A stretch of 64,000 nucleotides of DNA from Patescibacteria group bacterium UBA3533 (lineage in GTDB: Bacteria > Patescibacteriota > Minisyncoccia > Phycocordibacterales > Phycocordibacteraceae): positions 62,572 to 126,571 of the forward strand of contig DFOU01000003.1 in assembly GCA_002376865.1 (NCBI GenBank), in the 5' to 3' direction. Below, one piece after another: positions 966-56,674 of this stretch (position 1 is its first letter; the number at the start of each line of letters is the position of its first letter). A model generated the notes under the pieces. The model was not told the origin of the DNA. It searched no databases and worked only from the letters and a program-made list of their open reading frames with translations. The position numbers and the translations under genes were made by a program.

Positions 966-1397
966 ATGCGTACAATACTCTCAATTCTATTTGGACTTTC
1001 ACTCCTTTTAACTCCAGCTGTTGCGTTGGCGCAAGGTGGAGGACCAACAGGCACAGGTCCAGGGAATACTGGAGGACCAACAGGACCTACTCCAGGTGGG
1101 GGTGGAAGTGTTTCTTGTCCAGATGGTTCTTCTGGTCTTTGTAATCCACTACAAGCTGGTTCTCTAGAAGAATTTCTTACAGCAATTCTAGAGTTCATTG
1201 TTCGTCTTGGAACAATTGTCGTTATTGTGATGCTTGTTGTGGTTGGGTTTATGTTTGTAAATGCCCGTGGAAATCCAGAAGAGATTAAAAAAGCACGGGA
1301 CGCACTCCTTTGGACACTTGTAGGGGGAGTAATTTTAATTGGCGCGTTTGTTATAGCAGAGGCCATTAAGGCAACAGTAGAAGCAATTACTTCATGA
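966..1397 (+). CDS. T4SS pilin-like small membrane protein (TrbC/VirB2-like, CPR type); signal peptide plus Gly/Pro-rich linker
   Basis: 143 aa. N-terminal signal peptide (LLTPAVALAQGG), then two hydrophobic helices around the conserved loop ARGNPEEIKKARDALLWTLVGGVILIGAFVIAEAI. First of four tandem paralogs. Confidence 0.55.
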   Translation: MRTILSILFGLSLLLTPAVALAQGGGPTGTGPGNTGGPTGPTPGGGGSVSCPDGSSGLCNPLQAGSLEEFLTAILEFIVRLGTIVVIVMLVVVGFMFVNARGNPEEIKKARDALLWTLVGGVILIGAFVIAEAIKATVEAITS

Positions 1398-1645
1398 CAT
1401 TTAAAGAGTTCGTCACAAGTCTCATAAACTTCTTTGACACAAGCGTCATTCCTCTTTTATTTGCAATCATGTTCTTCATATTTTTATGGGGAATATTTCA
1501 ATACTTTTTTATAAAGAGAGAGGATCCAGCTGCTCGATCTGAAGGCGCACAGTTTATGTTGTGGGGGATCATAGGCTTTGCTGTAGTTATTTCTATGTGG
1601 GGGCTAGTGCGTCTTCTCTTGGGAAGTTTTGGTATAGGGGTATAA
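1394..1645 (+). CDS. T4SS pilin-like small membrane protein (paralog 2)
   Basis: 83 aa, ATGA overlap with the previous gene. Two TM helices flank KREDPAARSEGAQFMLWGIIGFAVVISMWGLV, matching the loop of neighbouring paralogs. Confidence 0.5.
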   Translation: MTFKEFVTSLINFFDTSVIPLLFAIMFFIFLWGIFQYFFIKREDPAARSEGAQFMLWGIIGFAVVISMWGLVRLLLGSFGIGV

Positions 1646-1675
1646 GATTTATCCACATTAGAAGGGTTATTTAAT

Positions 1676-1700
1676 AATACCGGCCTCTTTGGCCGGTATT
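1676..1700 (+). other. GC-rich hairpin between pilin paralogs 2 and 3 (no U-tract)
   Basis: aataccggcc-tcttt-ggccggtatt forms a 10-bp perfect stem right before the start codon at 1711. Possible attenuator or RNA processing site. Confidence 0.35.
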
Positions 1701-1710
1701 ATGTGTCTAT

Positions 1711-2100
1711 ATGAAAAAGAACACACAAATTTTAGGAATCGGTTCTATCAGCGGATTTGCTGCTTATTTGTTTGCAGTAATGCCAACACTTGCGTACGCA
1801 CAGTTTGCTGGAGATAGCATTGAAGGACTTGTAGAAAGCGTTATTAGTTTTATTAATGACACACTAGTGCCGCTTGTATTTGCACTTGCACTTATCGTGT
1901 TTATTTGGGGACTTTTCCAAAGTTTCATTCTTGGAGGAACAGATCCAGAGAAGCGAAAGGCAGGACAAGATCTTATGCTTTGGGGAATTATTGCATTCTT
2001 CGTAATGGTGTCTGTATGGGGACTAGTTAATATCCTTACAGGAACATTTGGGTTCTCAGGTGGAGAAACTGTAACTCTTCCTGGAGTACAGGAGCGGTAA
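1711..2100 (+). CDS. T4SS pilin-like small membrane protein (paralog 3, with signal peptide)
   Basis: 129 aa. Signal peptide ending TLAYAQ, two TM helices, loop GGTDPEKRKAGQDLMLWGIIAFFVMVSVWGLV. Confidence 0.55.
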   Translation: MKKNTQILGIGSISGFAAYLFAVMPTLAYAQFAGDSIEGLVESVISFINDTLVPLVFALALIVFIWGLFQSFILGGTDPEKRKAGQDLMLWGIIAFFVMVSVWGLVNILTGTFGFSGGETVTLPGVQER

Positions 2101-40190: not shown

Positions 40191-41387
40191 ATGAAGTTTG
40201 CAAAAACACATCAAGATGGTGCTGCAAGAGCAGGAATCATAGAAACAGCGCACGGAAATATTGAAACTCCTGCGTTTATTCCTGTTGGAACCAAAGCAAC
40301 TATTAAAGGAGTGCATCCACATGAGGTAAAGGATATTGGTGCACAAGTGATTCTTGCAAACACCTACCACCTCTTTTTGCAGCCAGGAGATGATCTTGTA
40401 AAAAAGCATGGAGGACTCCATAAGTTTATGAATTGGGCAGGTCCCATTGTTACAGATTCTGGAGGATTTCAAGTATTTAGTCTTGGCGCTGGTTTTGATA
40501 AGAGTGTCTCTAAAATGGGAGAGAAAAAGGAGGTGCAAAGCAGAACTCCTGCAGTTTTTGATGAAGCAATATTAAATGAGCATGGGAAGCTCGCCATAGT
40601 TGATGATGAGGGAGTTTCCTTCACATCTCATATAGATGGGACACTCTATCGATTTACGCCGGAGCGATCAGTTGAGATTCAGCATAATTTAGGAGCAGAT
40701 ATCTTTTTTGCGTTTGATGAGTGCACATCTCCTGATGCGGACTATGATTACCAAAGAGAAGCAATGAATAGAACGCACAGGTGGGCGAAGCGTTCTCTTG
40801 ATGCACACCGAAGAAACCTAGACAGCAAGCAGGCAATCTTTGGAATTGTGCAGGGCGGTAGGCACACTGATCTTCGAGAAGAGTCTTCAAAGACATTGGG
40901 GGATATGAATTTTGATGGATATGGAATTGGCGGAAGTTTTAGTAAAGAAGACTTGGGGCCAGCACTCGACGCGGGACTTAAGCATTTGCCAGAGGATAAG
41001 CCTCGGCACCTGCTTGGCATTGGAGAGCCGGCAGATATGTTTGAGGGAGTAGCACGTGGTATTGATACGTTTGATTGTGTTGCTGCAACCCGTCTTGCTC
41101 GAAACGGAACAGCGTATACGCTTGATGGGCCAATTGATCTAAGAAAAGAACCTTTCAAGGAAGACATGACTCCAATAGAGAAGGACCTTCCTGATTCTCC
41201 ATCTGCTCCATATACTCGTGCGTATCTAGCACACCTCTTTAGGGCAAAAGAAATGCTTGGAGGAATGATTGTCTCACAACACAACCTCTACTTTATTTTG
41301 AAGTTAGTTGATGACATGAGAGAAGCTATTAAAGAGGGAAGGTTTGAAGAGTTTAGGAAAGAGTTTTGCGATCGATACTACGCTTGA
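40191..41387 (+). CDS. tgt: Queuine tRNA-ribosyltransferase homolog
   Basis: 398 aa. Tgt N-terminal and catalytic motifs (ARAGIIETAHGNIETPAFIPVGT, GGFQVFSLG, LLGIGEP). The C-terminal CxCxxC zinc motif of canonical Tgt appears replaced (DLPDSPSAP). Confidence 0.8.
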   Translation: MKFAKTHQDGAARAGIIETAHGNIETPAFIPVGTKATIKGVHPHEVKDIGAQVILANTYHLFLQPGDDLVKKHGGLHKFMNWAGPIVTDSGGFQVFSLGAGFDKSVSKMGEKKEVQSRTPAVFDEAILNEHGKLAIVDDEGVSFTSHIDGTLYRFTPERSVEIQHNLGADIFFAFDECTSPDADYDYQREAMNRTHRWAKRSLDAHRRNLDSKQAIFGIVQGGRHTDLREESSKTLGDMNFDGYGIGGSFSKEDLGPALDAGLKHLPEDKPRHLLGIGEPADMFEGVARGIDTFDCVAATRLARNGTAYTLDGPIDLRKEPFKEDMTPIEKDLPDSPSAPYTRAYLAHLFRAKEMLGGMIVSQHNLYFILKLVDDMREAIKEGRFEEFRKEFCDRYYA

Positions 41388-41440
41388 CCAGAAGTATAAT
41401 TAGTTGTACTTTGGCGGAGGTTTGAAAAGAGGAGAGTGTG

Positions 41441-41611
41441 ATGGGAAAGAAGGCAAAAAATCCTGTACGTCATCCACAGGGAGATTTTCTCTCTGAGGGA
41501 GATCGCAAAAGGTGGGAGAAAGCACTTGCTGCTGATGATCAGAGGCTTGGCGGAATCTCACATCCTGGGCACTGTGCCTGGAAAGACGTGGGGCACGTCT
41601 GCCAAAGCTAG
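41441..41611 (+). CDS. Candidate small protein (56 aa)
   Basis: AAGAGGAG SD-like sequence upstream. MGKKAKNPVRHPQGDF...GHCAWKDVGHVCQS. Lies at the start of a GC-enriched stretch. Confidence 0.3.
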   Translation: MGKKAKNPVRHPQGDFLSEGDRKRWEKALAADDQRLGGISHPGHCAWKDVGHVCQS

Positions 41612-41736
41612 TTTTCAGAGGCAACTACATATGTGTAGTTGCCTCTTGACATTTTTGTATAAAAGTTATTGGATAAATATATCCTTAAGAAATTTTGGAT
41701 TATTTTCATCAAGCCAAACTGGAAAGGAGGCACGTG

Positions 41737-42423
41737 ATGAAACAAGGTTCTTTGAAAGCAAGCATTCTTGCCTTTGCACTTACTTTCTTCATATTCTTGC
41801 CTTTGCAAACTGCAGAAGCTGCGGATACGTGGGAGGGACAGGTTCAGGTTGAACGGACCCCAACTGTAATCTCGGCAACAATGAATATCTCTCTTCGTCG
41901 TGATTTCGAAACACTGAATCTCATTGCTTCATGCAATGCCAATCGGAACGACATGAGCCCGTGCGAGTTTTTCGTTTGGTTTCGGAGTCCGCCTCCGCCA
42001 AGAAATACTCAACGAGTCGTTCTCCGTTTCTATAAGGGTGGTGAGAGAATTCTGAGTGCCGCAGCTGGTTCTGAAAATGCATCGTATGATAGGGAAAGTG
42101 GCCGCTTTGTTCTTTCTTGGAGAGAATATTCTGGAACGTCACTCTCTTTGATGCAGACTCTTGCTGAAGGCGGAGAAATTGTGGTTGAGCTCTCAAGCGC
42201 AAACGGCCTGGGACAACCCGTTCCGTATTCGACCCACACATTCGAGGTTCCGGCGCTTCCGCAGCGAGCCATCGAGATAATTCAGACTATGAGGACGTCT
42301 GAAGAACGTCCAATCACATGGGCTCGAGAAGTGTTGGGTCCCTGTCATACTCAGTTGGACGAAGAAAGGATAGTCGCTTCAGCAGAGTTCTCTGGGGCAA
42401 GATTTCAAAATCAAACTTGTTAA
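41737..42423 (+). CDS. Secreted hypothetical protein (signal peptide)
   Basis: Strong SD (aaggagg). Signal peptide ILAFALTFFIFLPLQTAEA. Intermediate GC, higher than the surrounding genome. Confidence 0.5.
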   Translation: MKQGSLKASILAFALTFFIFLPLQTAEAADTWEGQVQVERTPTVISATMNISLRRDFETLNLIASCNANRNDMSPCEFFVWFRSPPPPRNTQRVVLRFYKGGERILSAAAGSENASYDRESGRFVLSWREYSGTSLSLMQTLAEGGEIVVELSSANGLGQPVPYSTHTFEVPALPQRAIEIIQTMRTSEERPITWAREVLGPCHTQLDEERIVASAEFSGARFQNQTC

Positions 42424-42600
42424 GTGGGGTCAAGAATGCAAAGTTGTAAATCAAGGGCGTAGATCACTATAAGTGTCTCGCCCTTTCTTTTTTATATAAC
42501 TCTTGACATATTTTTTAATACTGGTATCTTTTCTGTTCCTGAAATGGTTCAGGTTCCTGGCTTATCGCCAGGCTTTCAATTGGAAAAAGGGATTTCCAAC

Positions 42601-43020
42601 ATGAAATCTGTTCTTACCACGTCTGCCGCTTTGGCGATCGCCTTCGCTTCTACCGCGGTTACGCGCACCGGTGACGGCTCGTCGCTCGTCGAATCCGAGA
42701 ACGTCGACGTCACGGCGAAGCTGCTGCAGATCCAGTCGACCGGCCCCGAACATGTGGCCTCCTATGACGAGGATCTCGCCGCTGAGCTGAAAGCTCTCGA
42801 CGCCGAAGTCACGAACTTCACCTACGACGGCCAGGTCGCCGGCAGTGTCGAAGACGTCCAGGCCCGCATGAAGCTGAATATCGGCCGTATCGCCGGCATC
42901 GCCGTGCGGAAACGCGGTTCGATCCTCGCCAATTACGGCGACATCATGGACACGGCCTCGACCGCCGACGTGACGAGTATCGGTTCGACCGAGACGCCGC
43001 AGGCTGTGGCCGCCGCCTAG
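42601..43020 (+). CDS. Secreted hypothetical protein encoded in a strongly GC-rich segment
   Basis: Signal peptide MKSVLTTSAALAIAFASTAV. Codon third positions are almost all G/C, unlike the rest of the window. The antisense ORF 42562-43200 is judged a GC artefact. Confidence 0.5.
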   Translation: MKSVLTTSAALAIAFASTAVTRTGDGSSLVESENVDVTAKLLQIQSTGPEHVASYDEDLAAELKALDAEVTNFTYDGQVAGSVEDVQARMKLNIGRIAGIAVRKRGSILANYGDIMDTASTADVTSIGSTETPQAVAAA

Positions 43021-43046
43021 CACAGCTGGGTATGCGGTAACAAGGA

Positions 43047-43080
43047 GCGGGATACCTACGGGTATCCCGCTTTTCTTTTT
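43047..43080 (+). terminator. Rho-independent terminator
   Basis: agcgggatacc-tac-gggtatcccgct followed by tttcttttttt. Confidence 0.65.
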
Positions 43081-43104
43081 TATATATAAAGGTAAGGTAT
43101 TGAT

Positions 43105-45111
43105 ATGAAATTTAAGCTTCATGCTCCATATAAACCTGCAGGAGATCAGCCAGAAGCTATCAAAGCTCTTGTGAAGGGAATTAAGTCTGGAAAGAAACAT
43201 CAGACACTTTTAGGTGTTACAGGGTCCGGAAAAACCTATACTGTTGCCAACGTTATTGAGCAGGTGCAAAAGCCAACAATTATCTTAGCTCACAACAAAA
43301 CGCTTGCAGCACAGCTAACGCAAGAGTATCGAGAATTCTTCCCAGAGAATGCAGTGCATTACTTTGTTTCGTACTATGACTACTATCAACCAGAGGCATA
43401 CATGCCAGGTTCTGATACATATATTGAAAAGGAGGCACAGATTAATGCAGAGGTGAATCGATTGCGGCATGCGAGTACGCAGGCACTCCTTACAAGAGAT
43501 GATGTAATTATTGTTGCATCGGTATCTGCCATCTATGGTCTTGGGTCTCCAGAAGAGTATAAAAAGTTCCATCTTCCGATTGAAAAAGGAAAGAATCTCT
43601 CTCGCAGTGAGTTGGTGCGAAAGCTTGTAGGTATTTTCTTTGAGCGAACAAATGCAGATCTTGAGCCTGGAAAGTTCCGTGCTGTTGGAAACAGTGTTGA
43701 ACTTATGCCGGTAAACGAAAAGACAATTTATCGTATTGAATTTGAAGGAGAGAAAGTTAGCACTGTTACGCAGGTAGATCCAATTTCAAGAAGTAACCTC
43801 AAAGACCTCGATTCATACTTTGTATTCCCAGCAAAGCACTTTGTAACGCCTGAGGATGAGAGGGAGCGTGCAATACATGATATTCAAGTAGAGCTTGAAG
43901 AGCAGCTTGCTCGGTTTGAGCGAGAAGCAAAGCCTCTTGAGCGTGAGCGTCTAAAGCGCCGCACACAAAATGATTTGGCATTGATTCGTGAGATTGGTTA
44001 TACCAATGGAATCGAGAATTACTCACGACATTTTGATGGAAGAAAGGTGGGGGAAGCACCGTATACATTACTTTCATATTTCCCAGAAGGATTCCTTACT
44101 GTTATTGATGAGTCGCACGTTACGGTGCCACAACTAGGTGCTATGTATGCGGGAGATCAGTCTCGAAAGAATACGCTTGTTGAGTTTGGTTTCCGCCTTC
44201 CTTCTGCAAAAGACAACAGGCCTCTTATGTTCGAGGAGTTTGAAAAAGTTGTTAACCAAACGATTTACACAACTGCAACGCCAGGAAAGTATGAGCTTGA
44301 AAAATCTGGAGATCCTATTGAGCAGGTTATTCGCCCTACAGGGCTCCTGGATCCTGAGATTATTATACGTGGAGTAAATGAGACGAAGGAATATGTTGGC
44401 CAAGTACAAGACTTTATTGAAGAGAGTGAGAAGGTTGTAAAAGGAGGAGGGCGAGTACTTGTAACAACACTTACAAAGAAAATGGCAGAGGATCTCTCTG
44501 AGTATTTAAATGATAAAGGCGTAAAGGCAGAGTGGCTACACTCCGATGTAAAAACAATTGATCGAATTACAATTCTCTCAGAATTTAGAAAAGGAAAGTT
44601 TGATTGTCTTGTTGGAGTTAACTTGCTTCGAGAAGGACTTGATCTTCCTGAGGTAGAGCTTGTTGGGATTCTTGATGCAGATAAGGAGGGGTTCCTTCGA
44701 AGTGAGACATCACTCATTCAGACAATTGGACGAGCTGCTCGAAATGTAAATGGACGTGTGATTTTATATGCTGACAATATGACAGGATCTCTAGATAAGG
44801 CTATTGGAGAAACAAACAGACGAAGAGAAAAGCAGCTCGCCTACAACAAAGAGCATGGCATTACACCGCAAACTATTAAAAAAGAGATTAAAGATATTGC
44901 AGAGCAGCTACGTACCGATCACCAAAAAGCAGTAGATGAAGTTCTAAAGGTGGAAGAGGAGCTATATAAGAAGAGTCCAAAGAAATATATAAAGGAAAAG
45001 CGGAAACAAATGGAAGCTGCGGTAGAGCGTCTTGATTTTGAAACAGCTGCAATCATTCGAGATCAGATTGCAACTCTAGAAGAGTCGGGGAAAGAAACAA
45101 AAAGCAAGTAG
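43105..45111 (+). CDS. uvrB: Excinuclease ABC subunit B
   Basis: 668 aa. Helicase motifs (GVTGSGKT, DESH). C-terminal UVR domain (FETAAIIRDQIATLEE). Confidence 0.92.
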   Translation: MKFKLHAPYKPAGDQPEAIKALVKGIKSGKKHQTLLGVTGSGKTYTVANVIEQVQKPTIILAHNKTLAAQLTQEYREFFPENAVHYFVSYYDYYQPEAYMPGSDTYIEKEAQINAEVNRLRHASTQALLTRDDVIIVASVSAIYGLGSPEEYKKFHLPIEKGKNLSRSELVRKLVGIFFERTNADLEPGKFRAVGNSVELMPVNEKTIYRIEFEGEKVSTVTQVDPISRSNLKDLDSYFVFPAKHFVTPEDERERAIHDIQVELEEQLARFEREAKPLERERLKRRTQNDLALIREIGYTNGIENYSRHFDGRKVGEAPYTLLSYFPEGFLTVIDESHVTVPQLGAMYAGDQSRKNTLVEFGFRLPSAKDNRPLMFEEFEKVVNQTIYTTATPGKYELEKSGDPIEQVIRPTGLLDPEIIIRGVNETKEYVGQVQDFIEESEKVVKGGGRVLVTTLTKKMAEDLSEYLNDKGVKAEWLHSDVKTIDRITILSEFRKGKFDCLVGVNLLREGLDLPEVELVGILDADKEGFLRSETSLIQTIGRAARNVNGRVILYADNMTGSLDKAIGETNRRREKQLAYNKEHGITPQTIKKEIKDIAEQLRTDHQKAVDEVLKVEEELYKKSPKKYIKEKRKQMEAAVERLDFETAAIIRDQIATLEESGKETKSK

Positions 45112-45132
45112 GGTAAGTGCTAAAGTAAAAGC

Positions 45133-46236
45133 ATGAAGAACATCTCGCTTCGGATGCTTTCCGTAATTTTGGCGGTGCTTGCACTTGCTATTGCAGGTGT
45201 CTCAGTATATTTCGGATCAGAGCTCCTTCGGGAAAACATCCTAGGATTTCTTGGCACAAATACACTTCCTCCACAATTTCAGCAACAGCTTACAGACATT
45301 CTTGTAGCCCAAGGAATTATTACTGTTGCTACGTTCCTTATTGTTGCGATTATTATCGTAGTTATTCTTGAGAGGATGGTAGTAAGGCCGCTGAATCTTC
45401 TTTCTGCTGTTATCCAGCAGTTTGGAAGTGGGCTGCACGCTGATGATATTCCAGATCCAAAAGGAGCTCCCCATGAGATTGATCACATTTTTGAAACCTT
45501 CACTACCATGGCAAAGCATGTAGAGGAGGCTCGAGCTCGAGATGAAGAAATGTCTCGCATTAAGTCTGACTTTATTTCAACTGCAGCTCACCAGCTTAGA
45601 ACACCTCTTACTGGTATTAGGTGGGCGCTTGAAGCCATGGCAAAAGAACCAATGGAAGAGGGGAAGAAGGCAGTAGTGGCTGATGCGCTAGAGAAAAATA
45701 AGCAACTCATTCAAATTGTACGGACACTTCTTGATGTATCTGCCATTGAGTCAGGACGATACAACTACAAATTTGAACCAACATCACTTCCTGAGCTTAT
45801 TGGAACAACTATTGAGCAGTTGCAAGAGCATGCTACTCGCCAGCAAGTTGCTGTTAAATTTATACCTCCCGAATATGTTCCAGACATAAAAGCTGATAAG
45901 GAGCGACTGCGTTGGGTGCTCATCAATCTTATTGAAAATGCTATTCGTTATACACCTCCAAAAGGTTCGGTAACTATTTCTCTTGAGCCTGCTCGAGGAA
46001 GGGTCTTTATATATGTACATGATACTGGAATCGGAATCCCAGATAATGAACGAAACAATATCTTTGAGCGATTCTATCGAGGGAAAGCAGCTGCAAAGAT
46101 GCAAAACGGAGGGAATGGACTTGGACTATATATTGCTCGAAATGTGGTGCGGGATCATGGAGGAGATCTCGACTTTAAGGCAAATGAAGCAGGAATTGGT
46201 ACAACATTCTTCTTTTCAGTACCTGTTGCAACATAG
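45133..46236 (+). CDS. Sensor histidine kinase
   Basis: 367 aa. Two TM helices, H-box FISTAAHQLRTPL, N/G boxes (NLIENAIRYT, GLGLYIARNVVRDHGG). Confidence 0.8.
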   Translation: MKNISLRMLSVILAVLALAIAGVSVYFGSELLRENILGFLGTNTLPPQFQQQLTDILVAQGIITVATFLIVAIIIVVILERMVVRPLNLLSAVIQQFGSGLHADDIPDPKGAPHEIDHIFETFTTMAKHVEEARARDEEMSRIKSDFISTAAHQLRTPLTGIRWALEAMAKEPMEEGKKAVVADALEKNKQLIQIVRTLLDVSAIESGRYNYKFEPTSLPELIGTTIEQLQEHATRQQVAVKFIPPEYVPDIKADKERLRWVLINLIENAIRYTPPKGSVTISLEPARGRVFIYVHDTGIGIPDNERNNIFERFYRGKAAAKMQNGGNGLGLYIARNVVRDHGGDLDFKANEAGIGTTFFFSVPVAT

Positions 46237-46265
46237 GGGTATATATATGATAGGATAAACGCATT

Positions 46266-46652
46266 ATGGCAGACGAAACACAACGAACAGTTTTGGTGGT
46301 AGAGGATGACCCAATCCTGAAGAACCTTCTGGGAAATACTTTCTCAGGACGATACAAGGCAATGTATGCAGGAACAGGGAAGGAGGCACTTCAGTATGTA
46401 GAGGAGTATAAGCCAGATATTATTTTGCTTGATCTCATGCTTCCTGAGATGGGGGGATTTGAGGTACTTGAGCAGCTTCGAGCTCGAACAGATGAGCTTA
46501 AAGATACTCCAGTAATTGTAGTGTCTAATCTTTCACAGGAGAGTGATCAAGAGAAGGCAAAGCAGCTTGGAGCAAATGACTACATGGTAAAGGCAGAGGT
46601 TGCGATTGAGGAGATCACTTCAAAGATTGATCAGTTTTTTCAAGAAGCGTAA
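46266..46652 (+). CDS. Response regulator, stand-alone receiver (CheY-like) domain
   Basis: 128 aa. VLVVEDD, phospho-acceptor Asp in IILLDLMLP, and the conserved Lys region. Confidence 0.8.
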   Translation: MADETQRTVLVVEDDPILKNLLGNTFSGRYKAMYAGTGKEALQYVEEYKPDIILLDLMLPEMGGFEVLEQLRARTDELKDTPVIVVSNLSQESDQEKAKQLGANDYMVKAEVAIEEITSKIDQFFQEA

Positions 46653-46752
46653 ATTCTCTTTACACTGTTGACAACTAAGGTTCCCGAAAGGGGGCCTTTT
46701 GTGTATAGTGCTCCTATACAAACCCTATGGCCAGCTCGTAGGGGGAATACGT

Positions 46753-49377
46753 ATGGCAAATCATAAAAAACATGAACCATCAGATGAGATTGTTGTTAAG
46801 GGTGCAAAGACCCACAATCTTAAAAATGTAACCGTTTCAATGCCTCGCGGCAAAATGGTTGTTATTTCAGGACTCTCTGGTTCTGGAAAGTCTTCGCTTG
46901 CCTTTGATACGATCTTTGCAGAAGGACAAAGACGATATGTTGAATCACTTTCTGCATACGCACGGCAGTTCTTGCACCAAATGCAAAAGCCAGAGGTTGA
47001 TGAGATAACAGGACTTTCTCCTGCTATTTCAATTGATCAAAAGAGCAGGTCAAACAATCCACGATCTACCGTAGCTACTATTACAGAGATCTATGACTAC
47101 CTTCGAGTGCTCTATGCTCGTATTGGGCAGCCATATTGTTTGGATGATGACGTAAAGATTGAGAAGCTTTCAAAAGATGAAATGATCACTTTGGTTACAA
47201 AGAAGATTATTCCAGATCCTAAGAAAGCAGAGGAGGTTATGGGAGTACCCTTGAACCGTCAAAAGATCCAAATCTTTGCTCCTGTAGTGGTTGGAAGAAA
47301 GGGTGAGTACTATCAGCTTCTCTATGATTTGCTCGGGAAAGGATTTGAGCGCGTGATGATTGATGGAAAGATTCACTCACTTCGAGACAAGATTACCCTT
47401 ACTAAAACAAAGCGGCATGATATCGATGGGCTTGTAGATGAGATTTATGTAACTGAGTTTAAAAATGATCCAAGTGGTGCAAAGGAGCGACTCTCTGAAG
47501 CACTCGAGCTTGCGCTTCGGGAGACAGAAGGTCTTGTAAAGATTGGTCATGCAAATGGAGAATTTGAGACACTCTCTGCAAGGTTTATTTGCCCAGTAGA
47601 TGGTGCTGGCTTTCCTGATGTAGAGCCTCGCCTCTTCTCATTTAACTCTCCATATGGAGCATGTCCTGAGTGTAATGGTCTTGGAACAGTTGCACTTTTT
47701 GATGATGAAGTATGTAAGGCATGTGATGGGAAGCGACTTCGTCCTGAGGCACTCAGAGTTTATTTGGGAGGAAAGGGGAAGGATCTTGGAAAAAATATTG
47801 TAGAAGCCGCACATCTTTCGATTACAGATGCAGCAGAATTCTTTGATAATTTAAACCTCACAAAGAAACAAGAAGAGATTGCAGAGCCAATCTTGCGTGA
47901 GGTACGAGCACGGCTTTCATTCCTTCTTAATGTAGGGCTTGATTATCTAACACTTGATAGAAAGGCAAATACGCTATCAGGTGGAGAAGCACAGCGTATC
48001 CGTCTTGCATCTCAACTGGGATCTGGTCTTGTGGGTGCTCTTTATGTGCTTGATGAGCCAACAATTGGACTGCATCAAAGGGATAATGATCGATTGATTC
48101 AAACGCTTACGCAACTAAGGGATCTTGGAAATACCATTATCGTAGTAGAGCATGATGAAGATACTATCTACGCTGCAGACTATCTTATCGATGTAGGACC
48201 AGGTGCTGGAGTGCACGGTGGGGAGATTGTAGTCTCTGGATATCTAGATGATTTGCTAACTGCAAAAAAGAATACAAGTGGATCAAGAACTCTCGCATAT
48301 CTTCGAGAAGAGAAAATGATTCCTGTGCCAGAGAATCGGCGAACTGCAGAGAAAGGAAGTTTGAAGATTGTAGGAGCAAGCAAGCACAATATGGTGAATC
48401 AAAATGCAGATCTCCCTCTTGGAAAGCTTGTTTGTATTACTGGTGTGTCAGGATCTGGTAAATCTACATTCTTATATGATGTTGTTCATAAAAACTTGGT
48501 AAGTCGATTTGATCGGAAAACAAAGCAGGCAGCACACCATAACTGCGCAAAGTTCTTGGGAAGTGAGTATGTAAATCGTGCAGTGCTTATCGACCAATCT
48601 CCAATTGGAAGAACTCCAAGGTCTAACCCTGCAACATATACAGGAGCATTTACGCACATACGAGATCTCTTTGCTGCAACAAGTGAGGCACGGGCTCGTG
48701 GCTGGAAGCCAGGAAGATTCTCTTTCAATGTTAAAGGAGGTCGTTGTGAAGCCTGTCAGGGAAATGGAACAGTGGCGGTAGAGATGCACTTCCTCCCAAC
48801 AGTGTATGTGAAGTGTGATGTGTGTGATGGAAAGCGGTTTATGAAAGAAACGCTTGATGTTACATATAGAGGAAAGAATATCTATGAGGTACTACAGATG
48901 ACTGTAGAGGAAGGGTATGAATTCTATAAAGATATTCCTGCAATCAATGATCGCCTTAAGGCACTCCTTGATGTAGGTCTTGGATATCTAAAGCTTGGAC
49001 AATCAGCAACAACATTATCTGGTGGAGAAGCACAGCGTGTGAAGATTGCGTCAGAGTTGTTCCGTCCACTTCAAACAAAGACAGTGTATCTTCTTGATGA
49101 GCCAACGGTTGGACTTCATTATGATGATGTAGCAAAACTCATTACCATTCTTCAGGAGCTTGTAGAGCGAGGGAATTCAGTATTTGTTATTGAGCACAAT
49201 CTTGATGTAGTTAAGTCAGCTGATCATATTGTAGACTTTGGTCCAGAAGGAGGAGAAAATGGTGGGGTAGTTATTGCAAAAGGAACTCCAGAGGAAGTAG
49301 CGAAAGTCACAAGCTCATTTACCGGAAAATACCTTGCAAAGACACTAAAAAAACATGCAAAGAAAGGATCTAAATAA
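46753..49377 (+). CDS. uvrA: Excinuclease ABC subunit A
   Basis: Two ABC ATPase modules ([22 protein letters not shown]), zinc-finger insertions ([16 protein letters not shown]), signature LSGGEAQR twice. Start at MANHKK. Confidence 0.92.
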
Positions 49378-50566
49378 TTTTGACCTACCTGATAAACCCG
49401 GTGTATATACATTTTTAGAAAAGAAGAAAATTCTCTACATTGGTAAGGCAACATCACTTCGCGATAGAGTACGGAGCTATTTTAATGATGATCTTATAGC
49501 AAGTCGCGGGCCTCGTATTGTAGATATGGTCACGAAGGCAGATGAGGTTGTATATGAGGAAACTGATTCAGTACTCGAAGCCCTTATTCTTGAATCTTTA
49601 AAGATTAAAAAACATCAGCCTTTTTATAATGTAAAAGAGAAGGACGATAAAAGTTATCTCTATGCTGTTGTAACAAAAGAAGAATGGCCTCGTGTTTTGG
49701 TTGTGCGAGGGAAGGATTTAGGAACTACATTTAAATTGGATTTAGTTAAAAATAAGTACGGGCCATTTACAAGCGGGCCGTCACTTAAAAAAGCCCTTGA
49801 GATTATTCGAAAGATTTTCCCTTTCTACGATACAAAAAATGCAGTAACAAGAGATACAAAACATCAGGGAGCTAACCTTGAGTTTAATAGGCAGATTGGA
49901 AGATACCCAAGGGATATCTCGCATACTGAATATGTGCGGAATATTCGCCACATAGAGCTCTTTTTATCTGGAAAGAAAAAGGTAATCCTCAAAGAACTTG
50001 AGAGGGAGATGAAAAAAGCTGCAAAAGAGGAACGTTTTGAAGATGCAGAGCGTCATAAGAGGCAAATGTTCTCGTTAACTCATATCCAAGATGTGTCACT
50101 TATTAAAAATGATTTACGCAGAGTGCACGGTGTTCGTGTGGAGGGGTACGATGTAGCGCACACAAGCGGGCAAGATACTGTTGGAGTTATGACAGTTGTT
50201 GTAGATGGGGAGGTTGAAAAGAAAAACTACAGAAAGTTTCTTATCAAAGAGCATGGAAATAATGATATCGGTTCTCTAACTGAATTACTGGAAAGGCGTT
50301 TTGGACATCCTGAGTGGGAGTATCCAAAGGTGATTGTGGTAGATGGAGGGGTAGCACAAAAAAATGCTGCGCTTAAGGTTTTAGATAAGTTGGGATTACA
50401 AATTCCTGTGGTTGCCGTAACAAAAGATGAATATCATAGGCCTAAAAAGATTATTGGACTGCCAGGAGTTTCAACTCCAGAAGGGGATATTATTCTTGCA
50501 AATGCCGAGGCACATAGGTATTCGCTTTCTTTCCACAGATCACGGAGGGATAACTTAAAAAGGTAG
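49355..50566 (+). CDS. uvrC: Excinuclease ABC subunit C, compact form (GIY-YIG + UvrBC-interaction + RNase H-like regions, no C-terminal HhH)
   Basis: 403 aa. N-terminal GIY-YIG (PGVYTFLEKKKILYIGKATSLRDRV), UVR-like helix (ERFEDAERHKRQM), C-terminal VVDGGVAQKNAALKVL...PVVAVTKDE endonuclease region. Confidence 0.75.
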   Translation: MQRKDLNNFDLPDKPGVYTFLEKKKILYIGKATSLRDRVRSYFNDDLIASRGPRIVDMVTKADEVVYEETDSVLEALILESLKIKKHQPFYNVKEKDDKSYLYAVVTKEEWPRVLVVRGKDLGTTFKLDLVKNKYGPFTSGPSLKKALEIIRKIFPFYDTKNAVTRDTKHQGANLEFNRQIGRYPRDISHTEYVRNIRHIELFLSGKKKVILKELEREMKKAAKEERFEDAERHKRQMFSLTHIQDVSLIKNDLRRVHGVRVEGYDVAHTSGQDTVGVMTVVVDGEVEKKNYRKFLIKEHGNNDIGSLTELLERRFGHPEWEYPKVIVVDGGVAQKNAALKVLDKLGLQIPVVAVTKDEYHRPKKIIGLPGVSTPEGDIILANAEAHRYSLSFHRSRRDNLKR

Positions 50567-56597: not shown

Positions 56598-56674
56598 GGG
56601 CTCGTAGCTCAGTTGGCTAGAGCGCCTCACTTGCACTGAGGAGGTCGGGGGTTCGATTCCTCTCGAGTCCACCA
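56598..56674 (+). tRNA. tRNA-Ala (anticodon TGC), CCA encoded
   Basis: GGGCTCG acceptor with G3:U70, D-arm GCTCAGTTGGCTAGAGC, anticodon loop CTTGCAC, T-arm GGGGGTTCGATTCCTCT, ACCA 3' end. Confidence 0.9.

What the first reader, a model, noticed from the sequence alone, without database searches (positions are those of the whole stretch)
41400..43080. GC-rich island encoding secreted proteins between tgt and uvrB; possible horizontally acquired (host-derived?) DNA
Composition rises stepwise over three genes: a small 56-aa ORF, the secreted 41737-42423 protein at intermediate GC, and the 42601-43020 gene, in which nearly every third codon position is G or C. The last is far above the ~40% GC background, and GC returns to background at the terminator before uvrB. 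Both larger proteins have signal peptides and no recognisable family. If the organism is an episymbiont of high-GC bacteria such as Actinobacteria, this could be host-to-symbiont transfer. Chimeric assembly is the alternative.
Basis: partly seen in the sequence, partly recalled or inferred. Interest (0 to 1): 0.55.

Follow-up and report, generated by a model that had tools for sequence, protein, structure and literature searches.

The report
Orphan secreted-protein gene kept GC-rich
A small, lineage-specific gene for a secreted protein in a marine ultra-small (CPR) bacterium is written almost entirely in the genome's rarest G/C-ending codons, and because five diverged relatives keep this oddity at the same spot, it looks like a selected property rather than a fresh gene transfer or an assembly error.

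Summary
The GC spike is real, but only one gene carries it. This is "X", window 42601-43020 (139 aa): GC 0.63 and GC3 0.79, against GC3 0.20-0.50 for every other gene in the window. ORF1 and ORF2 are only mildly elevated, and there is no stepwise rise.

Mis-assembly is excluded. Three independent assemblies are 100% identical over tgt to uvrB.

X is a real, fast-evolving gene for a secreted helical protein. It has its own promoter, a two-hairpin leader supported by covariation, and its own terminator. Only five homologue clusters were found among about 15 billion proteins. All five sit between tgt and uvrB and all are GC-rich (GC3 0.66-0.79, flanks about 0.33). More distant Patescibacteria have tgt abutting uvrB, so the region is a clade-specific insertion.

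No donor homologue was found in Actinobacteria, phages, plasmids or anywhere else. About half of the four-fold sites have turned over per lineage, yet A-ending codons stay at 0-6% (background 42%). G and C are randomised between distant orthologues.

The bias is therefore most likely maintained by selection, not left over from a transfer. It is the opposite of the codon usage in putatively highly expressed genes. The mechanism is unresolved; mRNA stability or rare-codon gating are my inferences.

The parts
40191..41387 (+). tgt (queuine tRNA-ribosyltransferase). This is the left border gene of the insertion and has native composition (GC3 0.34).
   Evidence: Pfam PF01702, E = 3.7e-134. GC3. 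85-88% aa identity to the orthologues in L001, L002 and L008.
41441..41611 (+). ORF1, a 56-aa small ORF (GC 0.52) at a hypervariable position. Relatives carry a fast-evolving 56-64 aa ORF here. The interior of the window's copy is not homologous to theirs.
   Evidence: Protein alignment. DNA alignment to L091 shows conserved flanks and an unalignable interior. Identity among L091, L002 and L007 runs pos2 > pos1 > pos3, as expected for coding sequence. L001 and L002 do not align here although their flanks are 95% identical.
41617..41646 (+). Intrinsic terminator hairpin of ORF1 (13-bp perfect stem). It runs straight into the -35 TTGACA of the next unit (41645-41650).
   Evidence: Terminator scan. 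Inverted repeat I1. The hairpin plus TTGACA is conserved in all relatives.
41737..42423 (+). ORF2, a 228-aa orphan with a signal peptide and a mostly beta-strand, Ig-like low-confidence model. GC3 is 0.415. It is present only in this lineage and one relative.
   Evidence: Only P0006 (self) and P0007 (85% identity) were found. Same position in L091-L093. AlphaFold2 pLDDT 69. Weak Ig-like fold matches at E about 0.02.
42455..42498 (+). ORF2 terminator (interrupted GC stem GGGCG...CGCCC) with the tail TTTCTTTTTTATATA. The same 15-nt tail follows the X terminator.
   Evidence: Read from the sequence. Direct repeat D5 at 42484-42498 and 43072-43086.
42503..42530 (+). Promoter of X: TTGACA, 16 nt, TG-extended TATCTT. 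It is conserved in all five lineages.
   Evidence: Promoter scan, 10 of 12 matches with a TG motif. Alignment A5 shows TTGACA and TGnTAnnTT invariant or nearly invariant.
42538..42573 (+). Conserved two-hairpin 5' leader of X: hairpin 1 at 42538-42553 and hairpin 2 at 42555-42573. Hairpin 2 is followed by a U-rich run and so looks terminator-like. A third predicted helix pairs UUUCA with the UGAAA of the start region, up to about 42606.
   Evidence: RNAalifold gives 13 pairs, 4 with compensatory changes. 98.5% of cells are paired against 48% or less when the partners are slid, and the covariation score exceeds 500 of 500 shuffles. Single-sequence folds have z = -2.4 to -3.9. The motif occurs only once in the window.
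42601..43020 (+). X, a 139-aa orphan made of a signal peptide, a helical bundle and a disordered Ala/Thr/Ser-rich tail. GC is 0.63 and GC3 0.79. A-ending codons are absent from four-fold boxes (0 of 87).
   Evidence: Orthologues P0002-P0005. dN/dS is 0.3-0.6 and identity runs pos2 > pos1 > pos3. AlphaFold2 pLDDT 81, pTM 0.76.
43043..43084 (+). Intrinsic terminator of X: 14-bp stem (7 GC pairs) followed by a U-run. GC returns to background here.
   Evidence: Terminator scan. Composition profile.
43105..45111 (+). uvrB, the right border gene, with native composition (GC3 0.33). It heads a conserved cluster uvrB - histidine kinase - response regulator - uvrA - uvrC.
   Evidence: Pfam UvrB domains. 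Synteny.

Best explanation
The stretch 41.39-43.10 kb is a clade-specific accessory insertion in the ancestral tgt|uvrB junction of a marine Patescibacteria lineage. Among genome representatives this lineage is nearest to Saccharibacteria. The insertion consists of three independent monocistronic units, and only the last one, X, is compositionally aberrant.

X is a vertically inherited, rapidly evolving orphan gene for a small Sec-exported alpha-helical protein. It is transcribed from its own sigma-70-type promoter through a conserved two-hairpin leader and ends at a strong terminator.

Its GC-richness is not the scar of a recent transfer. It is confined to the body of the coding sequence (codons about 21 to the end). 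It is produced by near-total avoidance of A-ending codons, and partial avoidance of T-ending codons, in favour of the genome's rarest C/G-ending codons. It is kept at that state in all five known lineages although synonymous sites have substantially turned over. The bias is therefore most likely held by selection on the transcript or on its translation.

My inferred mechanism, which is not shown, is that the codon design together with the 5' stem-loops and the strong 3' hairpin makes an unusually GC-rich, nuclease-resistant and slowly or conditionally translated mRNA. Its product would be an extracellular, presumably host- or surface-interaction, protein. How the gene first arose (ancient transfer from an unsampled donor, or birth within the clade) is unresolved.
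For: Real locus: three assemblies are 100% identical over 4921 bp and five more are identical for the sister species.

Insertion: tgt abuts uvrB in L012, L016 and L017, and L010 has an AT-rich spacer without X.

Vertical and syntenic: all five homologue clusters lie between tgt and uvrB.

Protein-coding: the ORF is intact in all lineages at 31-66% aa identity, identity runs pos2 > pos1 > pos3, and dN/dS is 0.3-0.6. The AlphaFold2 model has pLDDT 81.

Conserved bias: GC3 is 0.66-0.79 against 0.32-0.36 in the flanks in every lineage. At four-fold sites A is 0.00-0.06 against 0.37-0.45.

Maintained, not residual:
- Four-fold sites of X have diverged as much as those of the flanks (0.52-0.57 identity against 0.52-0.55).
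- The flanks retain only about 0.50-0.58 'memory' per lineage.
- Even starting from 100% GC3 at the last split, neutral decay predicts A3 of at least 0.18-0.21 (observed 0/87, 5/86, 4/98; P = 1e-3 to 8e-9).
- It also predicts GC4 of at most 0.65-0.67 for the window lineage (observed 0.83; P = 1e-3 to 1e-4).
- Sites that are G or C in both distant orthologues are random with respect to G versus C (10 same/10 different; 13/7; 7/7).
- In the only unsaturated pair, synonymous differences are 3-4 times rarer in X than in the flanks (5/138 against 183/1527, Fisher P = 0.0017).

Linked to the coding sequence and strand-specific:
- GC falls to 0.33-0.38 immediately outside the CDS.
- All five orthologues share a 5' ramp, with GC3 0.37-0.53 in codons 2-20 and 0.65-0.88 afterwards.
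- T3 is tolerated while A3 is purged.

Regulatory frame: the promoter is conserved and the leader hairpins covary.
Against: - Only five lineages (four effectively independent) are available, and the counts of four-fold sites in distant pairs are small (27-54).
- The L001/L002 lineage (GC4 0.66) lies within the extreme neutral-decay bound. It also shows more GC-to-AT than AT-to-GC changes (4 against 1), so some relaxation or ongoing decay there is possible.
- The neutral model (F81-type, calibrated on flanking genes) is crude.
- No expression, mRNA half-life or tRNA-pool data exist, so the mRNA-stability and slow-translation steps are pure inference.
- Synonymous-shuffle tests show no consistent extra mRNA structure beyond what composition gives (z = -0.7, -2.1, -0.8, +0.1, -3.4).
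- The low synonymous divergence between L001 and L002 could also reflect a recent recombination event.
Confidence: 0.55

Rival explanations
1. Ancient horizontal transfer from a high-GC donor, possibly a host, into the clade ancestor. The present GC-richness would simply be incomplete, neutral amelioration.
For: The codon usage looks like that of a high-GC organism, with GCC, GTC, GGC, CTG, TCG and ACG preferred. The locus is an insertion relative to distant relatives. The native-looking promoter and signal-peptide segment next to a GC-rich mature part could be a fusion. GC4 of the L001 lineage is within the most extreme neutral bound, and that lineage shows 4 losses against 1 gain.
Against: - No donor homologue was found in about 15 billion proteins, phages or plasmids.
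- A3 deficits reject neutral decay in every lineage, and the window lineage's GC4 of 0.83 exceeds the bound.
- G versus C is randomised at sites that remain G/C. This needs turnover at a GC-favouring equilibrium.
- The synonymous rate is not elevated, as amelioration would predict, but equal or lower.
- The window lineage shows 3 AT-to-GC changes against 1 GC-to-AT change.
Confidence: 0.15
2. A local DNA-level bias rather than selection on the transcript: GC-biased gene conversion at a recombination hotspot, or a locus-specific mutational spectrum.
For: The junction is clearly recombinogenic. ORF1 alleles are replaced between genomes whose flanks are 95% identical at the nucleotide level. ORF2 was inserted between duplicated promoter and terminator modules. 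A link between recombination and GC3 in bacteria is established from the literature (my own knowledge, not checked here).
Against: - The enrichment stops exactly at the CDS ends; the leader, promoter and terminator have GC 0.33-0.38.
- The neighbouring ORF1 and ORF2 are not affected.
- The bias is strand-asymmetric, with A3 at about 0 and T3 at 0.17-0.28. A strand-symmetric DNA process does not predict this.
- A conserved 5' ramp exists.
Confidence: 0.1
3. Ordinary translational selection: X is extremely highly expressed and uses the organism's optimal codons.
For: The bias is very strong and covers the whole gene, as is otherwise typical of top-expressed genes. X is a stand-alone unit with a consensus -35 box, an extended -10 and a strong terminator.
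Against: Putatively highly expressed genes of the same genome use the opposite codons. At four-fold sites C+G is 0.11 in the S1-like ribosomal protein gene, 0.18 in ATP synthase c and 0.10-0.18 in the three larger T4SS pilin genes (0.27-0.30 in the two small ones), against 0.83 in X. X's preferred codons are the rarest in the genome: GTC 2%, CTG 2%, GGC 6%, GCC 7%.
Confidence: 0.05
4. The GC-rich segment is really a structured non-coding RNA or hosts a functional antisense gene, and the sense ORF is incidental.
For: GC-rich islands in lower-GC genomes are often RNA genes. The codon-aligned antisense frame is free of stops in 4 of 5 orthologues. Two orthologues fold better than their synonymous shuffles (z = -2.1 and -3.4).
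Against: - No Rfam hit at E < 1.
- The RNAalifold consensus is only -31.8 kcal/mol, against -157 to -201 kcal/mol for the single sequences, with many broken pairs.
- Shuffle z-scores are inconsistent across orthologues.
- The conservation pattern fits the sense frame (pos2 > pos1 > pos3) and not the antisense frame.
- An open antisense frame follows automatically from the absence of TTA, CTA and TCA codons, and L007 has an antisense stop.
- The antisense ORF would have to start inside uvrB.
Confidence: 0.03
5. Chimeric assembly joining a high-GC organism's fragment into a low-GC contig.
For: The composition jumps abruptly at 42.6 kb and 43.0 kb.
Against: The sequence across both junctions is identical in three independent assemblies from different samples and pipelines (ERZ842013, ERZ27286447, JGI 3300020447). 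Orthologous GC-rich genes sit at the same position in four other lineages. The boundaries coincide with the start codon and the terminator.
Confidence: 0.01

Closest known systems
Compositionally atypical 'alien' genes or genomic islets attributed to horizontal transfer, with later amelioration (Lawrence and Ochman framework; my own knowledge)
   Same: There is a sharp GC/GC3 outlier. The gene is inserted between conserved housekeeping genes. It encodes a lineage-restricted orphan, and its codon usage is unlike the host genome's.
   Different: The anomaly is shared by all diverged orthologues and does not decay as the framework predicts. There is no donor, integrase, tRNA target or flanking element repeats. 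The boundaries coincide with the CDS rather than with a DNA segment.
Conserved use of rare synonymous codons, and codon-gated expression. Examples are position-specific rare-codon conservation (PMC5438181, found; only its title and the start of its abstract were seen, the paper was not read) and bldA/TTA control in Streptomyces (my own knowledge).
   Same: Codons that are rare in the genome are conserved across orthologues. This implies selection on synonymous sites. The protein is secreted.
   Different: Here essentially the whole mature-protein coding region uses rare codons, not clusters or a single codon. No dedicated tRNA or regulatory link has been shown.
mRNA stabilisers built from 5'-terminal stem-loops (E. 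coli ompA and B. subtilis aprE leaders; my own knowledge)
   Same: A conserved stem-loop starts within a few nucleotides of the inferred transcription start of a gene for an exported protein. A strong 3' hairpin is also present.
   Different: The transcription start is inferred, not mapped. The second hairpin looks like an attenuator. No half-life data exist, and there is no sequence similarity to those leaders.
Small helical-bundle surface or secreted proteins (apolipophorin-III 1aep; Borrelia OspC 7bml)
   Same: The protein is all-alpha, with a bundle of about 100 residues behind a signal peptide, and it evolves fast.
   Different: The Foldseek matches are not significant (E at least 1.3, TM 0.26-0.32). 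There is no sequence similarity. This is a resemblance only, not membership.

Membership tests
Recently acquired genomic island (HGT) | Composition atypical for the resident genome | tested here: met
   X has GC 0.63 and GC3 0.79 against background GC3 0.20-0.50. ORF1 and ORF2 are only mildly elevated.
Recently acquired genomic island (HGT) | Absent from close relatives, or patchy in distribution | tested here: not met
   X is present and syntenic in all five known lineages of the clade. Only ORF2 is lineage-restricted. The insertion is absent only from much more distant genomes with 57% tgt identity.
Recently acquired genomic island (HGT) | Homologues in a plausible donor lineage | tested here: not met
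   An exhaustive phmmer search of 1.84 billion representatives found 3 hits, all from the clade. The indexed searches gave the same result. Phage and plasmid tblastn searches found nothing. Caveat: X evolves so fast that distant homologues could be undetectable.
Recently acquired genomic island (HGT) | Mobility signatures (integrase, tRNA target, flanking direct repeats) | tested here: not met
   No tRNA or recombinase lies near 41-43 kb. The only repeats are reused promoter and terminator modules of 14-15 nt.
Recently acquired genomic island (HGT) | Composition decaying toward the host genome at the neutral rate | tested here: not met
   A3 deficits have P = 1e-3 to 8e-9. GC4 of the window lineage is above the bound. 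L001 is inconclusive. G/C sites are randomised.
Assembly chimera | Junctions not reproduced in independent assemblies | tested here: not met
   Three assemblies are 100% identical over 4921 bp. Read-level support is not testable with these tools.
Sec-exported protein | N-terminal n-h-c signal peptide with an AXA-type cleavage motif | tested here: inconclusive
   By inspection: X has MKSVLTTSAALAIAFA|ST and ORF2 has MKQGSLKASILAFALTFFIFLPLQTAEA|AD. AlphaFold2 models an N-terminal helix in both. No dedicated predictor was available.
Structured non-coding RNA (Rfam families or a novel conserved fold) over the X body | Covariance-model match or a conserved, covarying structure | tested here: not met
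   No Rfam hit at E < 1. The consensus fold is weak. Shuffle z-scores are inconsistent. By contrast, the 5' leader hairpins do covary.
Diversity-generating retroelement target | Template/variable repeat pair and a nearby reverse transcriptase | tested here: not met
   No second copy of any part of X occurs in the window (blastn with word size 7). No reverse transcriptase was seen among the 48 window ORFs that were scanned; about ten larger ORFs were not scanned.
Translationally optimised, highly expressed gene | Codon usage matching that of ribosomal or energy genes of the same genome | tested here: not met
   The S1-like gene, ATP synthase c and the pilin genes are A/T-ending (four-fold C+G 0.10-0.30, 0.10-0.18 in all but the two smallest pilin genes) against 0.83 in X. 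The full ribosomal-protein set is not available.

The most novel reading that the evidence does not exclude
X is deliberately written in the genome's rarest codons as a gene-wide translational gate. Its synthesis would depend on a limiting subset of tRNAs (GNN/CNN) or on tRNA-modification state, which is notable given tgt next door. That would make expression of this secreted protein conditional, like a whole-gene version of the Streptomyces bldA/TTA switch.

Two wilder variants are also not excluded. The first is host-like coding because the message is used in or near a high-GC host. The second is a template strand depleted of T (coding-strand AA 0.03-0.06 against 0.06-0.12 in the flanks) that can still be transcribed after UV damage, next to the uvr cluster.
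Probability: 0.12. Interest if true: 0.75.

Novelty: new variant of a known kind. Interest (0 to 1): 0.55.

Why it matters
Atypical GC or codon usage is routinely read as a sign of recent horizontal transfer. Here the atypical state is inherited vertically, shared by diverged orthologues and apparently held by selection at synonymous sites in one gene of a reduced CPR genome.

If this holds, it is a clean natural case for studying what selects for gene-specific codon or GC design: mRNA stability, gated translation or export. It also warns against composition-based HGT calls.

In addition, it marks the tgt|uvrB junction of this clade as a hotspot for fast-evolving secreted orphans. These are candidate host-interface proteins of uncultured marine episymbionts.

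Tried and rejected
- Family searches (Pfam, NCBIfam, PHROGs, Rfam) on ORF1, ORF2 and X found nothing.
- ORF2 model: low confidence, with only weak Ig-like matches.
- Profile search for distant or donor homologues returned only the five family members. A metagenome scan added one more copy of a known lineage.
- mRNA-structure hypothesis: z-scores against synonymous shuffles were inconsistent (a first run timed out). The consensus fold was weak.
- Antisense gene: rejected on codon-position conservation and because it is a trivial by-product of codon choice.
- DGR or repeat origin: no template-like repeat was found.
- Enriched DNA motif in X (uptake or methylation site): no convincing k-mer appeared across orthologues.
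- High-expression codon optimisation: contradicted by the S1-like, ATP synthase c and pilin genes.
- Leader helix 3 covariation: the paired columns are not homologous in L008, so it remains a per-sequence prediction.
- Population polymorphism: all available assemblies of each species are identical, so there is nothing to analyse.
- Literature searches found no description of this gene or of the phenomenon in CPR bacteria.
Full report
**1. Observation**

A 200-nt sliding window gives GC 0.61-0.64 across 42600-43000. GC is 0.36 just upstream and 0.40-0.45 from the terminator onward. Over the whole window the mean is 0.417 (sd 0.041). Outside this locus the maximum is 0.55, at tRNA genes, so the spike is at z = 5.4.

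The ORF at 42601-43020 ("X") has GC1/GC2/GC3 = 0.61/0.48/0.79. The 57 other ORFs of at least 120 aa have GC3 0.20-0.50.

The claimed stepwise rise is not there. ORF1 has GC 0.52 and GC3 0.47. ORF2 has GC 0.48 and GC3 0.415. Both are only mildly above background. In about 83 kb of this genome (the window plus both extensions) and in the relatives' loci, X is the only real gene with the pattern GC3 > GC1 > GC2 at high values.

**2. Anatomy**

The region holds three separate units, each with its own promoter-like site and hairpin terminator:

- **ORF1** (41441-41611), with terminator 41617-41646. The terminator runs directly into a TTGACA box.
- **ORF2** (41737-42423), with an interrupted GC stem and a U-tail at about 42455-42498.
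- **X**, which has:
  - a promoter at 42503-42530 (TTGACA, 16 nt, TG-TATCTT);
  - a leader of about 65 nt;
  - a Shine-Dalgarno AAGGGA;
  - an ATG at 42601;
  - a stop at 43020;
  - a 14-bp terminator at 43043-43074.

The modules CTCTTGACAT(T/A)TTT (41643 and 42500) and TTTCTTTTTTATATA (42484 and 43072) are repeated. This suggests cassette-like addition of ORF2.

Some gene callers chose the upstream ATG at 42544, giving 158 aa. That extension overlies the conserved leader hairpins and is absent from the orthologues, so 42601 is the likely start.

**3. Not an assembly artefact**

The 4921 bp from tgt to the end of uvrB are 100.000% identical in three independent assemblies: ENA ERZ842013, ENA ERZ27286447 and JGI 3300020447. 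The identical ORF2 protein is on 7 contigs. For a sister species, five independent assemblies are identical over the orthologous 4.1 kb.

**4. Distribution and organism**

X has five homologue clusters among about 15 billion proteins:

- itself;
- P0002 (70% identity);
- P0003 (69%);
- P0004 (42%);
- P0005 (34%).

A read-everything HMMER search of 1.84 billion representatives found only members of this set, and a profile search added nothing. All five lie between tgt and uvrB, in the conserved order Zip - FKBP - tgt - (small ORF) - X - uvrB - HK - RR - uvrA - uvrC.

Within this clade, tgt is 85-88% identical. The nearest genome representatives reach only 57-58% on tgt and 65-69% on uvrB, and they are Saccharibacteria or Patescibacteria MAGs. 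In three of them (L012, L016, L017), tgt and uvrB are about 10-40 bp apart. L010 has an AT-rich 390-bp spacer with no X.

So the three genes are an insertion into an ancestral tgt|uvrB junction, and the insertion is restricted to a narrow marine clade. The marine assignment rests on Tara being among the sources.

**5. X is a real protein gene**

- The ORF is intact in all lineages despite 31-66% aa identity.
- Per-position identity runs pos2 > pos1 > pos3: 0.83/0.74/0.60 for the closest inter-species pair and 0.61/0.50/0.39 for the most distant.
- dN/dS is 0.3-0.6, against 0.03-0.11 in the flanks.
- AlphaFold2 with the five-sequence alignment gives pLDDT 81 and pTM 0.76. The model has an N-terminal hydrophobic helix (residues 7-19), a helical bundle (32-119) and a disordered Ala/Thr/Ser-rich tail.
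- There is no significant fold or sequence match in PDB or BFVD.

**6. The anomaly is conserved**

Orthologue GC3 is 0.66 (L001), 0.68-0.71 (L002), 0.77 (L007) and 0.69 (L008). Flanking genes are at 0.32-0.36. In each case the GC rise is limited to the CDS.

Four-fold site composition:

| Base | X | Flanks |
|---|---|---|
| A | 0.00-0.06 | 0.37-0.45 |
| T | 0.17-0.28 | 0.29-0.37 |
| C | 0.32-0.53 | 0.06-0.11 |
| G | 0.23-0.42 | 0.12-0.23 |

In the window, X never uses GCA, GGA, ACA, GTA, CCA, TCA or CGA, which make up 35-56% of their codon boxes in the background. Instead it uses the following:

| Codon | X | Background |
|---|---|---|
| GCC | 65% | 7% |
| GTC | 54% | 2% |
| GGC | 70% | 6% |
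| CTG | 40% | 2% |
| ATC | 100% | 21% |
| GAC | 90% | 18% |

All five orthologues share a 5' ramp: GC3 is 0.37-0.53 in codons 2-20 and 0.65-0.88 afterwards.

**7. Residual or maintained?**

Flanking four-fold sites are 0.49-0.55 identical between lineages, against 0.33 expected at saturation. That means each lineage keeps only about 0.50-0.58 of its ancestral states. X's four-fold sites have diverged at least as much as those of the flanks (identity 0.37-0.57).

Take the most generous scenario: 100% GC3 at the moment of the last split, followed by decay at the flank rate toward flank composition.

- Predicted A3 is at least 0.18-0.21. Observed values are 0/87, 5/86 and 4/98 (P = 1e-3 to 8e-9).
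- Predicted GC4 for the window lineage is at most 0.65-0.67. The observed value is 0.83 (P = 1e-3 to 1e-4).
- L001, at 0.66, is within the bound.

Sites that are G or C in both distant orthologues are random as to which base they carry (10 same/10 different, 13/7, 7/7). This requires turnover at a GC-favouring equilibrium rather than retention.

In the only unsaturated comparison (L001 against L002), synonymous differences are 3-4 times rarer in X than in the flanks (5/138 against 183/1527 codons, P = 0.0017). Amelioration predicts the opposite.

Polarised changes are few:

- Window lineage: 3 AT-to-GC and 1 GC-to-AT.
- L001 lineage: 1 AT-to-GC and 4 GC-to-AT.

I conclude that the bias is held by a directional force acting on the coding strand of the CDS. 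Selection is the most likely force. The sample is small and the model is crude.

**8. Rival mechanisms tested**

- **Translational optimisation.** This is contradicted. An S1-like ribosomal protein gene, ATP synthase c and the three larger T4SS pilin genes of the same genome have four-fold C+G of only 0.10-0.18 (0.27-0.30 in the two small pilin genes).
- **Structured RNA.** There is no Rfam hit. Synonymous-shuffle z-scores are -0.7, -2.1, -0.8, +0.1 and -3.4. The consensus fold is -31.8 kcal/mol, against -157 to -201 for single sequences.
- **Antisense gene.**
  - The codon-aligned antisense frame is open in 4 of 5 orthologues, but that follows from the lack of TTA, CTA and TCA codons.
  - The conservation pattern does not fit that frame.
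  - The antisense ORF would also have to start inside uvrB.
- **DGR.** There is no template-like repeat.
- **GC-biased conversion.** The junction is recombinogenic (see section 10), but three things argue against a strand-symmetric DNA process:
  - the bias stops at the CDS ends;
  - it spares ORF1 and ORF2;
  - it is strand-asymmetric, with T3 tolerated and A3 purged.
- **Mobile-element origin.** No phage or plasmid match was found.

**9. Leader**

Downstream of the conserved promoter, two hairpins (window 42538-42553 and 42555-42573) are conserved. Of 13 pairs, 98.5% of cells are paired and 4 pairs carry compensatory changes. Pairing falls to 48% or less when the partners are slid.

Hairpin 2 is followed by a U-rich run and was picked up as terminator-like. 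Each orthologue can also pair (U/C)UUCA with the UGAA(A/G) of the start region, leaving the Shine-Dalgarno sequence in or near a loop. The columns involved are not homologous in L008, so I treat this third helix as a prediction only.

The motif occurs only once in the window. The position of hairpin 1 at the inferred 5' end resembles known 5' stabilisers. That is my inference, since the transcription start is not mapped.

**10. ORF1 and ORF2**

*ORF1 position.* It holds a small gene that evolves extremely fast. L091, L002 and L007 share a motif (TLK-ER-RRR...C-GTP...GDED..LQNP..W-D) with coding-like conservation.

L001 and L002 are only about 35% identical here, although their flanks are 95% identical at the nucleotide level. 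The interior of the window's ORF1 is not homologous to that of L091, although both flanks align at about 90%.

*ORF2.* This is a 228-aa orphan with a classical signal peptide. It was found only in this lineage and one relative at 85% identity. Its low-confidence model (pLDDT 69) is mostly beta-strand with weak Ig-like matches. Its composition is unremarkable.

**11. Best explanation**

*Shown:*
- a clade-specific insertion of three monocistronic units;
- X as a vertically inherited, fast-evolving orphan that looks secreted;
- a rare-codon, GC-rich bias that is limited to the CDS, conserved, and inconsistent with neutral decay, assembly error, high-expression codon optimisation, an RNA gene or a DGR.

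*Inferred:*
- selection acts on the transcript or on its translation;
- the GC-rich body, the 5' stem-loops and the strong 3' hairpin would give a stable message that is slowly or conditionally translated;
- the product is an extracellular protein, probably at the cell surface or host interface.

*Unresolved:*
- how X originated;
- what the protein does;
- what exactly is selected.

**12. Comparison with what is known**

X behaves like an 'alien' gene by every compositional criterion. It nevertheless fails most of the evolutionary criteria for a recent island: patchiness, donor homologues, mobility signatures and amelioration.

The nearest concept is conserved rare-codon usage or codon-gated expression (PMC5438181, title and start of abstract only; bldA/TTA from my own knowledge). 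Here, however, the rare codons cover the whole gene. I therefore rate it a new variant of a known kind. The protein family itself is new but tiny.

**13. Limits**

- Only five lineages are available, and there is no polymorphism data.
- No expression data or full tRNA set are available.
- Signal peptides were judged by eye.
- The organism's host is unknown, so the idea of an 'Actinobacteria host' could not be tested beyond the absence of homologues.

Noticed in passing
window 59976-60088 (+): Match to the Rfam LOOT RNA family (RF03000): 65.6 bits against a gathering score of 46.4, E = 4e-10. It lies in the low-GC right-hand part of the window.
   Followed up: no
window 56598-64000: A large serine recombinase gene (56617-58179, minus strand; Resolvase plus Zn_ribbon_recom domains) abuts tRNA-Ala (56598-56674). 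From there to the window end GC drops to about 0.37, and the genes are mostly orphans plus an AAA_15/AAA_21 ATPase (60440-62287). This is probably an integrated element at the tRNA gene.
   Followed up: partly
window 966-2100 (L095 10001-11406): A cluster of four small T4SS pilin (VirB2/TrbC-like) paralogues. The first has the lowest GC3 in the window (0.20).
   Followed up: partly
window 41441-41611; L001 9677-9871; L002 9652-9837; L091 1313-1498; L007 1069-1239: The small ORF directly after tgt is hypervariable. It is about 35% aa-identical between L001 and L002, whose flanks are 95% nt-identical. In the window genome its interior is replaced by non-homologous sequence, while the leader and terminator stay conserved. 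It is absent from L008.
   Followed up: partly
window 41643-41656 and 42500-42513; 42484-42498 and 43072-43086: The promoter module (CTCTTGACAT...) and the terminator tail (TTTCTTTTTTATATA) are duplicated around ORF2 and X. It looks as if genes are added to this junction as promoter-gene-terminator cassettes.
   Followed up: no
L095 3640-4730 (same genome, about 5 kb left of the window start): A 1.1-kb stretch with no credible ORF and GC 0.54-0.58 lies between an S1-domain gene and a beta-lactamase-fold gene. It has no Rfam match even at E < 0.1. It may be a divergent or undescribed RNA gene.
   Followed up: partly
L094 13275-14876 (same genome, about 3 kb right of the window end): A 533-aa orphan with GC 0.51 and GC3 0.56 but without the A3 depletion of X (four-fold A 0.20). 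It sits in the putative integrated element and is a more ordinary candidate for foreign DNA.
   Followed up: no
window 43105-50566 and all related loci: A histidine kinase and response-regulator pair is embedded between uvrB and uvrA-uvrC, and this arrangement is conserved across the clade.
   Followed up: no
window 42601-43020: The coding strand of X is poor in AA, which means few TT sites on the template strand: 0.03-0.06 against 0.06-0.12 in the flanks. It is also poor in dipurines, so template dipyrimidines are 0.21-0.25 against 0.27-0.35. This may be just a by-product of the codon bias. It is noted because the gene sits in a UV-repair cluster.
   Followed up: partly
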